A stretch of DNA of 64,000 nucleotides. Origin: the human T2T-CHM13v2.0 reference genome, Homo sapiens. The position numbers were made by a program, and so were the translations under genes. The stretch lies in assembly GCF_009914755.1 (NCBI RefSeq), contig NC_060931.1; one strand, given 5' to 3'. The first letter of the stretch is position 1; each line of letters opens with the position of its first letter. The notes beneath the pieces were generated by a model. That model searched no databases. It was not told the DNA's origin and saw only the letters and a list, made by a program, of their open reading frames with translations. Of this stretch, positions 44,781-48,165 are shown one piece after another.

Positions 44781-45889
44781 AGAAAAAGAGAGAGAGAGAG
44801 AGACTCTTTTCCATTAGTTTCCCATTCCATGACATACTTCCACCAGACATAAACTGTTCCTTCATGCCTTTATTCTACTTTAAATCATTTGATGTCAGTA
44901 TGTCAATTAGCATTCACAGAATAAGATAAGGGAAACTTTTTTTAGTCTCATTTACATCTCACAACTAAATAGGCCAGATTTTGTAAGGGAATAAACTCAG
45001 AGGCTGCTGAGGGGTTGAATAACTTGTCTCTCTGACAGTGGTGGCCATGGCTTCTGCCACACTGCTTGTTTTGTGAAACAACCAAGTCTCCTGCCTACCT
45101 TTCTGACCTTTCATTCCACCTGTGCCTTGTAGAGTCCAATCACAAGTCATTTGCAGTTTCCTTTTTCTTTTCCTGTTCCTGTGTACATGCTCTTCTGCTC
45201 TGAGTTCACGTCTCTGTGTTTTTGGTGGCATAGGGAGGGTTAGGCAAACATGCTTTCTTTGTGAAGCCTTTTCTGACTCGACCTGAAATAATCAGTGGTT
45301 TCTCTTTTTCAAAATTTCTCTGTAACAAATAACATAGGACATTATTTTTCAGTTGGATGCCTGTCTCATGCCTTTCTCCTATTCTCAGAACCTGATTACC
45401 TTGCCCTACCCTGCCCAACCCCATTTTATATGTACTTTATGTGAGCTTTGGCAAGCAGGGACCACATTATACTTTTTATTTTTATTTCCATTGTATTTAG
45501 CAGAGTAATAGCATATGCTCAAAAAATGTTTGTTGAATTAAGTTGATAAAGAAGGAAGACATGGGCAAGAAACATAGTGTAAAAGGCAGGAAGGAAACTA
45601 TGTGTTAAGAGACAGTGGTTTAGCCCCCCAAAAAGGTAGCAAGAGATAAGTCTAGAGAGGTGTCGGTGAAACTCGTCTGTGGTAAAATTTGTTGGGGCAA
45701 ACAGTATTTATGAAACCCAATCCATAATACATAACATGGATAGAAAGAATGAGACTGAAAAAAAGGACTTGTTAAAAAAAATTTAAAAACCTTGGCAGCT
45801 GTCCCCTCTCCCCAAAACACACACATCCTCCCCACTCACGCCCCCACTTCTGCCTCCACCTCCATCTCTATCTCCATCCCCACCAGCTT

Positions 45890-48165
45890 AGCTTGACTTT
45901 TGGGAGCTAGAATCCCAAAGATCCCTTTCCCAGAGTGCTCTGCTCCAGACCTAGCAGCTGCAGGGAACTGTGGGTATTTTATGATTTTGGAGCCAGAGAA
46001 ACAAGATGGTGAGTGACCTCCACAAACTGAGGGAAAATGTTTGGGCTTTGGCTGGGCTTCTTCTGAGCAGTAGTGCAGCCCTAATTCATTCTTCTCTTTT
46101 CCACACAATGACATCGAAGGTGTTTTGGCCTGCTATTCGTAACGACCCCTTCACACATGTTAGCCTGCGGAAAGAAGCTCTACTGAGCAGAGGCGATCAG
46201 CTTTCCCCAGGTGGATTTTGGGCCATGTTACCCAAAGAAAACTTCTGTTTTCTGTTTTGTGTCACTCTTCTCAGTAGCTTTGCTCTGTAGGCCAGCCCTG
46301 GAGGCCCCTTCTCTGCAGAGGGTTAGAGGCCTGTCCCCAGTCCCTCATCATCATATTTCAGGATGGCTGGAAGCAGTGGTTCCAAGGCCAAATTCATCAT
46401 CAGTGGGAAATACAAACTGGTATGGAAGATCACATCTGGCTTTTTTGGGGACATTTATCAGGCAAAGAACATAACCAATAGTAAAGAAGTGGCGCTAGCA
46501 TCCTTGAATTCTGGAAAGCTAGGTATTTCTCATTGCAGTCCCAGAGAAAACTTTTTAGATTCTTCAGGGCGGGTTAGTATTTCAACATGAGATGGTATGA
46601 TTAGAGCAAAGACTGCAATGTGCTACTCTTGGATCTTCAGCCCTCAAGACCTCTTCATTTTCTTTTGGAGAAGGCTCCCAGTGAAAACCGTAGTTAGGTT
46701 AGCAGACCAGATGACTGGTAGAATTGCATATGTGCATGCAAAGAATTTGAGTCACAGTTTAAACCAGATAACTTCCTAATCAGTATTGAGTATTGCTATA
46801 GGAAGTTATTCCTTATTGATTTTGATTTGCTGAAAAAGTACAGAAACAATAGGATAAGGCAGCACATATCATAGAGGAGATAGTAATCTCTAGCACCACT
46901 TGCTAAGTTAGCATCAGTGCACATCTTGGTATTGATCAGAGTTTTAGAGATGACATGTTATCATCATGATACATGTAAATGTAATTTAATAGAACCAGCC
47001 TGCCATGGCAAAGATTAAAGTCTGCAACAAAGAACAGAAAAATGAAAATGTTAATGAGAGAATGATAAAATGAAAAGGAGTTGATGGAAGGTATCTACTC
47101 CTGTTGAAATTTTGTATAAGGGGTTTTCTGCAGAATTTGCAGTAAACTATTGTTATGGATCACACATTAAGGAAGCCTTGAGACAGCTATTCCACAATAT
47201 TTTCTGGACCCTGAACTGCTGATATTAAATACATATTTGGTTGAATATTGTTAAAGCAGAAAACAGTACAGAAGGCAGCCTCTTCCCATGGAGTTAGCAT
47301 GCCCAAACTCTCACAGGTTTCCATGCATGAAGGGAGGAACAGAAGAAGCAGAATAGATAATCAGAGTAACATTTGTATATCGCCAAATCCAGAATTTTTA
47401 GTTCATATGTCGCATTGCCAGTGTTGTGAACAACCATTTCCCAGGTAAAAATAACGTAGGAATAAAATGGCTCTGGGCAGCATTGCTGATATAACCAAGT
47501 TGTGGCCTCTGTAATTATGTATATTAACTGAAGTTGTTAAACATGCTTTCAATTTTTATAGCACCTTTTTCAGTGGAAAACTTAACTAAATAATTGGCAT
47601 ATACCAATTTGTGTTGAGAGTTTTTCCATGCCTGTGTGTGTGTGTGTGTATGTGTGTGTGTGAAAACCTATTATTTTGAACTCTACTGCTTTGAGAAGGG
47701 CCATATGGTTGTATATGCACAAAATTGCGCATTCTTAAAGTTTTTTCATACGTAAGGCTTGCAAGTTGTTTACTTAAAACATTAAAATGGTTGGCATCTT
47801 GCTTAAGGCAGCTGATAAAGTAGCAACGAAAGAGTCCGGTTTTTGAACATATGAAAATTCTGTTTGTTATACTATGAATAGCAGCATCTAAAGTGAAGAA
47901 GTAAGAAATACTCTGTGGTAACTAGATTATCCTTAGTACTCTGAATGAACTCTTTAACGACCCTTGAATTAAAAAATATTTGTTACAGAAATTGAAAGCT
48001 AAACGTGAATGTTCATGTTCATGCTCAAATAAATGTAATTATTATGAACACCTACATGATTTGGGATTTTGGTTTTATTTTGAAATGAGAGCTCTTTCAT
48101 TTACAAGTTCACTAAAAACTCAAATGTTTCTTGAAAATCACAGGAGCTTATGAACATTAAAAAGA
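45890..48165 (+). pseudogene. Processed pseudogene of CSNK1A1 (casein kinase 1 alpha): decayed 5'UTR, CDS remnant 46363-47324, 3'UTR; outer ends approximate
   Basis: [32 protein letters not shown] resembles [50 protein letters not shown] resembles KTVLMLADQMISRIEYVH; MLKQKTVQKAASS resembles MLKQKAAQQAASS; intronless with several frameshifts and stops. Confidence 0.95.
47633..47662. repeat. (TG)n microsatellite
   Basis: Direct reading. Confidence 0.9.

What the first reader, a model, noticed from the sequence alone, without database searches (positions are those of the whole stretch)
45835..46014. CK1-alpha retrocopy 5'UTR appears to have become an in-frame HDAC9 exon (new N-terminus MILEPEKQD)
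Seen: CTCAC branch motif (A45838); no AG from 45799 to 45884; a degenerate hexamer pyrimidine run (CTGCCT CCACCT CCATCT CTATCT CCATCC CCACCA); CAG acceptor ending 45886; consensus donor ATG|GTGAGT at 46008/9. ATG 45981 reads ATG ATT TTG GAG CCA GAG AAA CAA GAT G, nine codons plus one base, which is the phase needed to join TG GAT GTG at 53122 and give MILEPEKQD-VDVKSEV. As a 122-nt cassette it would stop the upstream frame at once (G|CT TAG), turning the canonical start into a uORF and swapping N-termini. A second CAG ending 45933 would give a stop-free 75-nt in-frame insert. Inference: the donor GT arose by CpG decay of the parent's AAGATGGCG (parent UTR recalled from memory), so a dead kinase retrocopy would be supplying an exon to its host deacetylase.
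Basis: partly seen in the sequence, partly recalled or inferred. Interest (0 to 1): 0.8.

Follow-up and report, generated by a model that had tools for sequence, protein, structure and literature searches.

The report
Latent exon in a dead retrocopy
An ancient dead copy of the casein kinase 1 alpha mRNA lying inside an HDAC9 intron has decayed into something that looks like a good exon, but nothing available here shows that cells use it, and look-alikes this good arise by chance in the same stretch of DNA.

Summary
Window 45900-46362 aligns to the 5'UTR of the chr5 CSNK1A1 gene. The chr5 locus encodes CK1-alpha residues 1-41 exactly. The GT of the donor at 46009 is a C>T change at a CpG in the parental AAGATGGCG; chr5, chr15 and chr13 copies keep GGCG and chr11 has GGCA. 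The ATG at 45981 is also new, being GTG in the parent.

Three corrections apply. The 45886 acceptor, its pyrimidine tract and the branch motif are host intron, not retrocopy. The origin of +4 to +6 of the donor cannot be reconstructed. The retrocopy spans 45900-48131, far more than the annotated 46502-47157.

The claim that this has become an HDAC9 exon is not shown. None of RefSeq's 40 HDAC9 models has it, six of seven literature searches bore on the exon and found nothing, and no transcript data are reachable here. Acceptor-donor pairs this good are expected about 2.5 times per strand in this window and occur 2 and 8 times. An in-phase open ATG precedes 22% of all GT sites. The candidate exon is no better conserved than dead coding sequence. 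Most likely it is a pseudo-exon.

The parts
45835..45839 (+). CTCAC branch-point-like motif, with its A at 45838, 48 nt upstream of the acceptor, in host intron
   Evidence: By my own reading it is the only yUnAy match in the AG-free zone. Function is untested.
45851..45886 (+). C-rich pyrimidine tract ending in CAG, a candidate 3' splice site. It is host-intron sequence, not retrocopy.
   Evidence: 17 of 20 pyrimidines, C at -3 and no AG upstream. No AG in 45799-45884. It lies upstream of the first base alignable to the parent (45900). Window 45600-45899 is single-copy in the genome.
45887..46008 (+). Candidate 122-nt latent (pseudo-)exon: 13 nt of host intron plus 109 nt of retrocopy 5'UTR. 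It closes an incoming phase-1 frame at TAG 45889-45891.
   Evidence: translation X* at once. Not in any RefSeq HDAC9 model (hub table).
45934..46008 (+). Alternative 75-nt version that uses the CAG ending at 45933. It is stop-free and in frame, giving a 25-residue insert.
   Evidence: The acceptor is weaker: 14 of 20 pyrimidines with an AG inside the upstream 16 nt. The CAG and its flank are inherited unchanged from the parent 5'UTR.
45981..46008 (+). ATG plus nine codons plus one base (MILEPEKQD), in phase with exon 53122. The ATG is derived; the parent and the chr15 copy have GTG.
   Evidence: Initiation context TATTTT ATG A.
46009..46014 (+). GTGAGT candidate 5' splice site. Its T (46010) is a C>T change at a parental CpG.
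   Evidence: 8 of 9 match to MAG|GTRAGT and 8 contiguous in-register pairs to the U1 5' end; 6 of 3403 plus-strand GT sites do as well. The ancestral state is GGCG in chr5, chr15 and chr13 and GGCA in chr11.
45900..48131 (+). Sense-oriented processed pseudogene of CSNK1A1. The 5'UTR is 45900-46362, the CDS-derived part runs from ATG 46363 to about 47420, and the 3'UTR-derived part reaches 48131.
   Evidence: It aligns exon by exon to chr5 150.03-150.09 Mb. The first 40 codons match CK1-alpha chains in the PDB. There are many in-frame stops. The CDS end is approximate and was not fixed by a call.
53122..53363 (+). Annotated HDAC9 coding exon to which the candidate donor would join (phase 1)
   Evidence: Hub table; PF12203 in this frame.

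Best explanation
An old, dead, sense-oriented CSNK1A1 processed pseudogene (45900-48131) sits in the long HDAC9 intron, about 7 kb upstream of coding exon 53122. Decay of its once CpG-rich 5'UTR produced two new features. A C>T change at a CpG in the parental upstream-ORF start made a consensus-like 5' splice site at 46008|46009. A G>A change made an ATG at 45981. A host-intron pyrimidine tract with CAG at 45886 happens to lie 13 nt upstream of the insertion. Together they form a latent exon, or pseudo-exon.

The most likely behaviour is that it is skipped, or included only at trace level as splicing noise. In the latter case the 122-nt form puts TAG two codons into the incoming frame and gives an unproductive transcript. 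It is not a selected coding exon of HDAC9.

Shown: the origin of each piece, and the in-silico frames. Inferred: that the exon is not used.
For: Origin. Window 45900-46478 aligns to chr5 exon 1 (63.5% over 628 columns, E 2.5e-52; alignment). The chr5 exon encodes CK1-alpha residues 1-41 at 41 of 41 identity. The rest of the copy follows the parent's exons to 48131. The reading frame is full of stops. CpG observed/expected is 0.18 in the window against 0.84 in the parental 5'UTR. The donor T is derived: 4 of 4 other copies have C.

Non-use. There is no such exon among 40 RefSeq HDAC9 transcripts, although RefSeq does list a weaker-consensus cassette at 11010-11126 in this region (hub table). 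Pairs of equal consensus quality occur at the chance rate: 2 observed against about 2.5 expected on the plus strand, and 8 against about 5.9 on the minus strand. In-phase open ATGs precede 22% of all GT sites. Non-CpG identity to the parent is 76 of 91 (0.835) in the retro part of the exon. It is 83 of 102, 344 of 424 and 82 of 101 (0.81) in the dead CDS, so there is no sign of added constraint. The ATG context is poor. No paper mentions the exon, the peptide or the pseudogene locus.
Against: By the simple measures the candidate's sites are as good as or better than those of the annotated exons in the window. Its donor scores 8 of 9; one annotated exon (61749-61870) also scores 8 of 9, the others with a GT donor score 5 to 7 of 9, and 15984-16348 has no GT donor. 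Its acceptor scores 17 of 20, inside the annotated range of 12 to 18 of 20. At the strictest setting it is the only such pair on the plus strand, with 0 on the minus strand. Some inclusion is therefore quite possible.

The first 34 retro-derived bases (45900-45933) are 23 of 24 identical at non-CpG sites. That is a small sample, but it is higher than elsewhere.

Absence from RefSeq and from the searchable papers is weak evidence. GENCODE, CHESS, GTEx/recount junctions, CAGE, Ribo-seq and proteomics could not be consulted. My splice-site measures are consensus counts, not a trained model, and they ignore enhancers and silencers.
Confidence: 0.78

Rival explanations
1. This is a real but minor 122-nt cassette. 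Inclusion after the canonical first coding exon ends that ORF after one more codon and turns it into a short upstream ORF. Ribosomes then reinitiate at ATG 45981, 89 nt downstream, and make HDAC9 with the N-terminus MILEPEKQD.
For: The frames work exactly as stated. Donor and acceptor are strong by consensus. Short upstream ORFs followed by a gap allow reinitiation (general knowledge, not tested here).
Against: No transcript support is available and the exon is absent from 40 RefSeq models (hub table). The ATG has T at -3 and A at +4. The ATG run inside exon 53122 is a further possible reinitiation site. There is no excess conservation. The whole pattern is expected about 0.5 to 1.3 times per strand of this window by chance. 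The transcript would carry a premature stop far upstream of many junctions, which makes it a likely decay target.
Confidence: 0.04
2. This is an unproductive ('poison') cassette with a regulatory role. Regulated inclusion of the 122-nt exon lowers HDAC9 output through nonsense-mediated decay.
For: There is an immediate stop on inclusion. The sites are strong. The C/T-rich tract with TCTCT and CTATCT resembles motifs bound by pyrimidine-tract repressors; that resemblance is recalled, not tested.
Against: Functional poison exons are typically highly conserved, but here divergence equals that of dead sequence. There are no reports.
Confidence: 0.08
3. This is an alternative first exon. Transcription starts in or just upstream of the retrocopy's 5'UTR and the donor at 46008 splices to 53122, so that ATG 45981 is the first start codon.
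For: The frame upstream of the ATG is open only back to TGA 45894-45896 (read), and ATG 45981 is the only in-phase ATG in 45887-46008. Baertsch et al. (PMC2584115, passages read) found that new 5' exons are a recurrent class of retrocopy exon acquisition (10 cases).
Against: A retrocopy does not carry its parent's promoter. The CpG island has decayed, with 5 CpGs in 463 nt and observed/expected 0.18. RefSeq lists no functional element here; the nearest enhancers are at 41534-42611 (hub table). CAGE data are not available here.
Confidence: 0.04
4. This is a 75-nt in-frame cassette (45934-46008) that inserts 25 residues after the first coding exon.
For: It is stop-free and in frame. The CAG is intact and inherited from the parent.
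Against: The acceptor is weaker, with 14 of 20 pyrimidines and an AG within the upstream 16 nt. It lies 47 nt downstream of the better AG at 45886. There is no transcript support.
Confidence: 0.02

Closest known systems
Retrocopy 'exon acquisition' by a host gene (Type I events of Baertsch et al. 2008, PMC2584115; passages read)
   Same: A sense-oriented retrocopy inside a host intron, part of which could be spliced into the host mRNA as a new 5' or internal exon with a continuous reading frame.
   Different: Those cases were defined by spliced mRNA or EST evidence, and none is available here. Neither HDAC9 nor CSNK1A1 occurs in that paper's main text. The piece here comes from the parent's 5'UTR rather than its ORF, and half of the splice signals are host intron.
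Intronic pseudo-exons and cryptic exons (reviews seen only as search listings and abstracts: PMC8819188, PMC7175933)
   Same: Intronic stretches with consensus-like splice sites on both sides that are normally skipped or used at noise level. They are frequent in long introns. This one sits in an intron tens of kb long.
   Different: Here the origin of the donor can be traced base by base to a dated event, CpG decay in a retrocopy.
Annotated HDAC9 cassette exon 11010-11126 in the same region (hub table)
   Same: An internal exon upstream of exon 53122. By my reading it would also close an incoming phase-1 frame. HDAC9 5' ends are already variable.
   Different: That exon is annotated although its consensus is weaker (donor 7 of 9, acceptor 16 of 20). 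The candidate is stronger by consensus but unannotated.
Exonization of Alu elements by point mutations that create splice sites (recalled from general knowledge; no paper read here)
   Same: A retroposed sequence in an intron gains a functional-looking splice site through a single substitution, often a CpG transition.
   Different: The element here is an mRNA retrocopy, not a SINE, and use of the site is unshown.

Membership tests
Processed pseudogene (retrocopy) of CSNK1A1 | Collinear, intron-less alignment to the exons of the parent gene | tested here: met
   Window 45900-48131 matches chr5 exons in order without the introns. The parent exon 1 encodes CK1-alpha residues 1-41 at 41 of 41 identity. 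The window's first 40 codons match CK1-alpha with E 4.8e-12.
Processed pseudogene (retrocopy) of CSNK1A1 | Starts at the parent's transcription start, so the 5'UTR is included | tested here: met
   The alignment starts at 45900, which corresponds to L002 position 1610. The independent chr15 copy starts 8 nt away at L002 position 1618. The parental 5'UTR covered is about 502 nt.
Processed pseudogene (retrocopy) of CSNK1A1 | Poly(A) tail and target-site duplications | tested here: inconclusive
   Only an A-rich stretch follows 48131. The best direct repeat between the two flanks scores 6.0, below the null mean of 7.7. This is expected for a copy this diverged.
Processed pseudogene (retrocopy) of CSNK1A1 | Disabled reading frame | tested here: met
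   There are many in-frame stops from codon 76 onward.
Retrocopy-derived exon of a host gene (exon acquisition) | Retrocopy in a host intron in the host's orientation | tested here: met
   Both are on the + strand, and the copy lies between upstream HDAC9 exons and exon 53122 (hub table).
Retrocopy-derived exon of a host gene (exon acquisition) | Splice-site consensus on both sides and frame continuity with the host | tested here: met
   This is in silico only and is within chance expectation.
Retrocopy-derived exon of a host gene (exon acquisition) | Spliced transcripts that join the piece to host exons | not testable with these tools
   No transcript, junction or EST data are reachable. No RefSeq model has the exon (hub table). 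The held part of the supplement of PMC7290577, whose Table S5 lists retrocopies contributing to host transcripts, has 0 mentions of HDAC9, but the file was cut when stored.
Functional poison exon | Premature stop on inclusion | tested here: met
   TAG 45889-45891 is the second codon.
Functional poison exon | Sequence conservation above the neutral level | tested here: not met
   Tested only by a within-genome proxy. Non-CpG identity to the parent is 0.835 (76 of 91) against 0.81 in the dead CDS. No other mammalian genome is held, so there was no direct test.

The most novel reading that the evidence does not exclude
The latent exon is used in some cell type. The 122-nt cassette ends the canonical ORF after one extra codon, reinitiation at ATG 45981 follows, and HDAC9 is made with nine N-terminal residues encoded by the decayed 5'UTR of a casein-kinase retrocopy. 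Its splice donor would then have been created by a single CpG transition in the parent's upstream-ORF start.
Probability: 0.04. Interest if true: 0.55.

Novelty: new member of a known kind. Interest (0 to 1): 0.25.

Why it matters
If the exon were used, it would be a clean, base-by-base traceable case of a host gene gaining a coding 5' exon from the untranslated leader of a dead retrocopy. It would also add to the already variable N-terminal region of HDAC9, just upstream of the Gln-rich domain.

As the evidence stands, it is an ordinary pseudo-exon. Its practical value is limited to two points. It is a site where a deep-intronic variant or a splicing-factor change could activate an unproductive HDAC9 transcript. 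It also corrects the extent of the annotated pseudogene.

Tried and rejected
1. Target-site duplications to fix the retrocopy's 5' border. Local alignment of 45840-45910 against 48101-48450 scored 6.0, below the null mean of 7.7. Nothing usable came of it.

2. Tandem-repeat status of the 'hexamer' pyrimidine run. TRF gave 0 rows.

3. Repeat origin of the upstream flank. Window 45600-45899 hits only itself in the genome.

4. Literature, seven searches. HDAC9 with CSNK1A1 and retrocopy. HDAC9 with cryptic exon; the one candidate paper concerns mouse Hdac9 splicing changes and gives no exon detail. HDAC9 alternative first exon and isoforms; PMC7532680 deals only with the MITR and full-length isoforms. 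The peptide string and the LOC number returned 0 papers. Retrocopy exon acquisition was a background search. HDAC9 isoform structure. HDAC9 with novel exon, pseudoexon or poison exon; none of the 12 listed papers holds HDAC9. No search found a report of this exon.

5. Supplement of PMC7290577. The held part has no HDAC9, but the file was cut when stored.

7. A search of the large protein databases for the N-terminal peptide was considered and not run. Nine residues cannot reach significance, and isoforms collapse into clusters at 90% identity.

8. The exact history of donor positions +4 to +6. Two MAFFT runs place the gap differently, as a 4-nt gain and a 25-nt gap. Only the C>T at +2 is secure.
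Full report
OBSERVATION

- CTCAC lies at 45835-45839.
- There is no AG between 45799 and 45884.
- A C-rich pyrimidine run at 45851-45886 ends in CAG.
- A second CAG ends at 45933.
- ATG 45981 is followed by eight more codons and one base.
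- The donor reads ATG|GTGAGT at 46008|46009.
- Exon 53122 starts TG GAT GTG.

These were read and recomputed.

Joining by coordinates, ATG 45981 plus exon 53122 gives an open frame through to 53363. That frame is the real HDAC9 frame. It carries the class IIa HDAC Gln-rich N-terminal domain (PF12203, E 8.9e-24) and matches HDAC4 chains in the PDB.

The 122-nt version (45887-46008) stops an incoming phase-1 frame at its second codon, whatever the carried-over base. The 75-nt version (45934-46008) is open and in frame. The canonical first coding exon lies upstream of the window and was not read.

WHAT THE SEQUENCE IS

The window's own genome could be searched. Window 45887-46362 hits chr5 at 150.086 Mb and chr15 at 34.62 Mb. 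A sensitive blastn aligns window 45900-46478 to the chr5 locus over 628 columns at 63.5% identity, E 2.5e-52.

The chr5 exon encodes residues 1-41 of casein kinase I isoform alpha at 41 of 41 identity to PDB chains. The window's ATG at 46363 starts the corresponding, already mutated, sequence.

The copy continues through the parent's exons, without introns, to 48131 in the 3'UTR. Its frame is full of stops. RefSeq's pseudogene row (46502-47157) covers less than a third of it.

CpG observed/expected has fallen to 0.18 (5 CpGs in 463 nt), against 0.84 in the parental leader. Non-CpG divergence from the parent is JC 0.21-0.25 in CDS- and 3'UTR-derived parts. With a recalled neutral rate this points to an insertion on the order of 100 million years ago. 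No other mammalian genome was available to check.

ORIGIN OF EACH SIGNAL

Donor. The parental leader has a short upstream ORF that starts in AACAAGATGGCG (MASSAE-stop). The window has AACAAGATGGTG at the same place. Four of four other copies keep C at that position: chr5, chr15 and chr13 read GGCG and chr11 reads GGCA. The T of the donor GT is therefore a derived C>T change at a CpG.

The AGT at +4 to +6, which makes the site strong, cannot be reconstructed. One MAFFT run implies a 4-nt gain. Another places a 25-nt gap.

Start codon. ATG 45981 is GTG in the parent and in chr15, so it too is new.

Minor acceptor. The CAG ending at 45933 lies in a stretch (GATCCCTTTCCCAGAGTGCTCTGC) identical to the parent.

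Major acceptor. The alignment to the parent starts at 45900. The independent chr15 copy starts 8 nt away on the parent. So 45886, its pyrimidine tract, the branch motif and the TAG at 45889 are host intron, single-copy in the genome. The '5'UTR exon' is thus a chimera of 13 host bases and 109 retrocopy bases, and only its 3' half of signals comes from the retrocopy.

IS IT MORE THAN CHANCE?

I scored every GT and AG in the window with simple consensus measures.

The candidate donor matches MAG|GTRAGT at 8 of 9 and can form 8 contiguous pairs with the U1 5' end. 15 of 3403 plus-strand GT sites reach 8 of 9, and 6 also reach the run of 8.

The acceptor has 17 of 20 pyrimidines, C at -3 and no nearby AG. 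54 of 4212 AG sites reach 16 of 20 with the same conditions.

From these densities, about 2.5 acceptor-donor pairs spaced 50-250 nt are expected on the plus strand and about 5.9 on the minus strand. Observed are 2 on the plus strand (the candidate, and one ending at 27320) and 8 on the minus strand, from 7 donors. At the strictest setting about 1 is expected per strand, and 1 and 0 are seen.

An in-phase ATG with no stop before the donor is found for 22% of all GT sites (748 of 3395 and 664 of 2934). With a looser acceptor threshold, 24 pairs occur on the two strands. One of them is the real exon 61749-61870, and 4 have an in-phase ATG, two of these on the minus strand.

The whole pattern is therefore expected roughly 0.5 to 1.3 times per strand in a window like this. 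It is not a statistical anomaly.

Against my own reading, the candidate's sites compare well with the annotated exons of the window. Its donor at 8 of 9 is equalled by one annotated exon (61749-61870), and the others with a GT donor score 5 to 7 of 9. Its acceptor at 17 of 20 falls within the annotated range of 12 to 18 of 20. Some inclusion would not be surprising.

IS IT USED?

This is the core of the claim, and it could not be tested directly.

The hub's RefSeq table lists 40 HDAC9 transcripts. They include extra exons at 11010-11126 and 15984-16348, and none at 45887-46008. The 15984-16348 exon has no GT donor and carries AATAAA, so it is a terminal exon.

Six of the seven literature searches bore on the exon and found no report of it, of the peptide or of the pseudogene locus. 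Two papers were opened for passages and were irrelevant.

The catalogue paper on retrocopies that contribute to host transcripts (PMC7290577) does not mention HDAC9 in its text or in the held part of its supplement. That file was cut when stored, so this is a weak negative.

As a within-genome proxy for selection I compared non-CpG identity to the parent:
- retro part of the candidate exon: 76 of 91 (0.835)
- its 75-nt core: 53 of 67 (0.79)
- dead CDS: 83 of 102, 344 of 424 and 82 of 101 (0.81)
- 3'UTR: 547 of 708 (0.77)
- remaining 5'UTR: 200 of 289 (0.69)

The lower value in the remaining 5'UTR probably reflects change in the parent as well, plus alignment uncertainty. The exon is no better kept than dead sequence. 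The only high value, 23 of 24 in 45900-45933, is a small sample.

MECHANISM

Most likely (0.78) this is a latent pseudo-exon made by chance. Retrocopy decay supplied a U1-like donor and an ATG, and the host intron supplied a pyrimidine tract and an AG. It is skipped or used at noise level, and if it is used the 122-nt form is unproductive.

It is coherent in silico. It needs a poorly placed ATG (T at -3, A at +4) to be used ahead of the ATG run inside exon 53122. It also needs the transcript to escape decay. I give it 0.04.

The other rivals are a regulated poison-exon role (0.08), an alternative first exon (0.04) and the 75-nt in-frame insert (0.02).

COMPARISON WITH WHAT IS KNOWN

The kind is known. 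Baertsch et al. 2008 (PMC2584115, passages read) classed retrocopy exon acquisition by host genes as Type I. They found 10 new 5' exons, 18 new 3' exons and 6 internal exons, all backed by spliced mRNAs or ESTs.

The present locus meets the positional and in-silico criteria. The defining one, spliced transcripts, is untestable here. It also matches the general picture of intronic pseudo-exons. Creation of a splice site in a retroposed element by a point mutation is familiar from Alu exonization; that comparison is recalled, and no paper was read for it.

VERDICT

The evolutionary origin is confirmed, with corrections. Exon status is unsupported.

The finding is ordinary unless junction data say otherwise. 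Interest is 0.25.

Noticed in passing
window 45900-48131 (against the annotated 46502-47157): The CSNK1A1 processed pseudogene is about 2.2 kb long. It runs from the 5'UTR, through a CDS riddled with stops, to about 0.7 kb of 3'UTR. That is more than three times the span of the RefSeq pseudogene row.
   Followed up: yes
L002 (chr5 parent) around locus position 1504; window 46006-46008: The parental CSNK1A1 5'UTR carries a six-codon upstream ORF (MASSAE-stop) whose first four residues mimic the main ORF's MASSSG. The ATG is kept in the chr15 and chr13 copies and lost in chr11. This may be a regulatory uORF or a trace of an internal duplication.
   Followed up: partly
G000 chr13:36322586-36324427, chr15:34621752-34624049, chr11:102810274-102811736, chrX (C23):38207351-38208027, chr5:99336821-99337291, chr9:5857116-5857380: At least six further CSNK1A1-derived copies exist in the genome. 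The chr13 one is probably the intron-less CSNK1A1L gene; that name is recalled, though CSNK1A1L is listed as a known protein-coding retrogene in the PMC7290577 supplement. The chr13 and chr11 copies begin about 80-90 nt further into the leader than the window and chr15 copies.
   Followed up: partly
window 47633-47663: A (TG)n microsatellite inside the 3'UTR-derived part of the retrocopy explains the many short, near-perfect genome hits (sequence read). This is ordinary.
   Followed up: yes
window 15984-16348 and 11010-11126: The annotated alternative HDAC9 exon 15984-16348 has no GT after it and contains AATAAA near its end, so it is a terminal exon of truncated transcripts. The cassette 11010-11126 would close an incoming phase-1 frame, by my reading, and has weaker consensus splice sites than the candidate.
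   Followed up: partly
window 27572-27749 (+); also 27107-27320 (+): There are other plus-strand pseudo-exon candidates in the same intron. One at 27572-27749 has an in-phase open ATG. One ending at 27320 has an acceptor of 18 of 20 pyrimidines. Neither is annotated.
   Followed up: no
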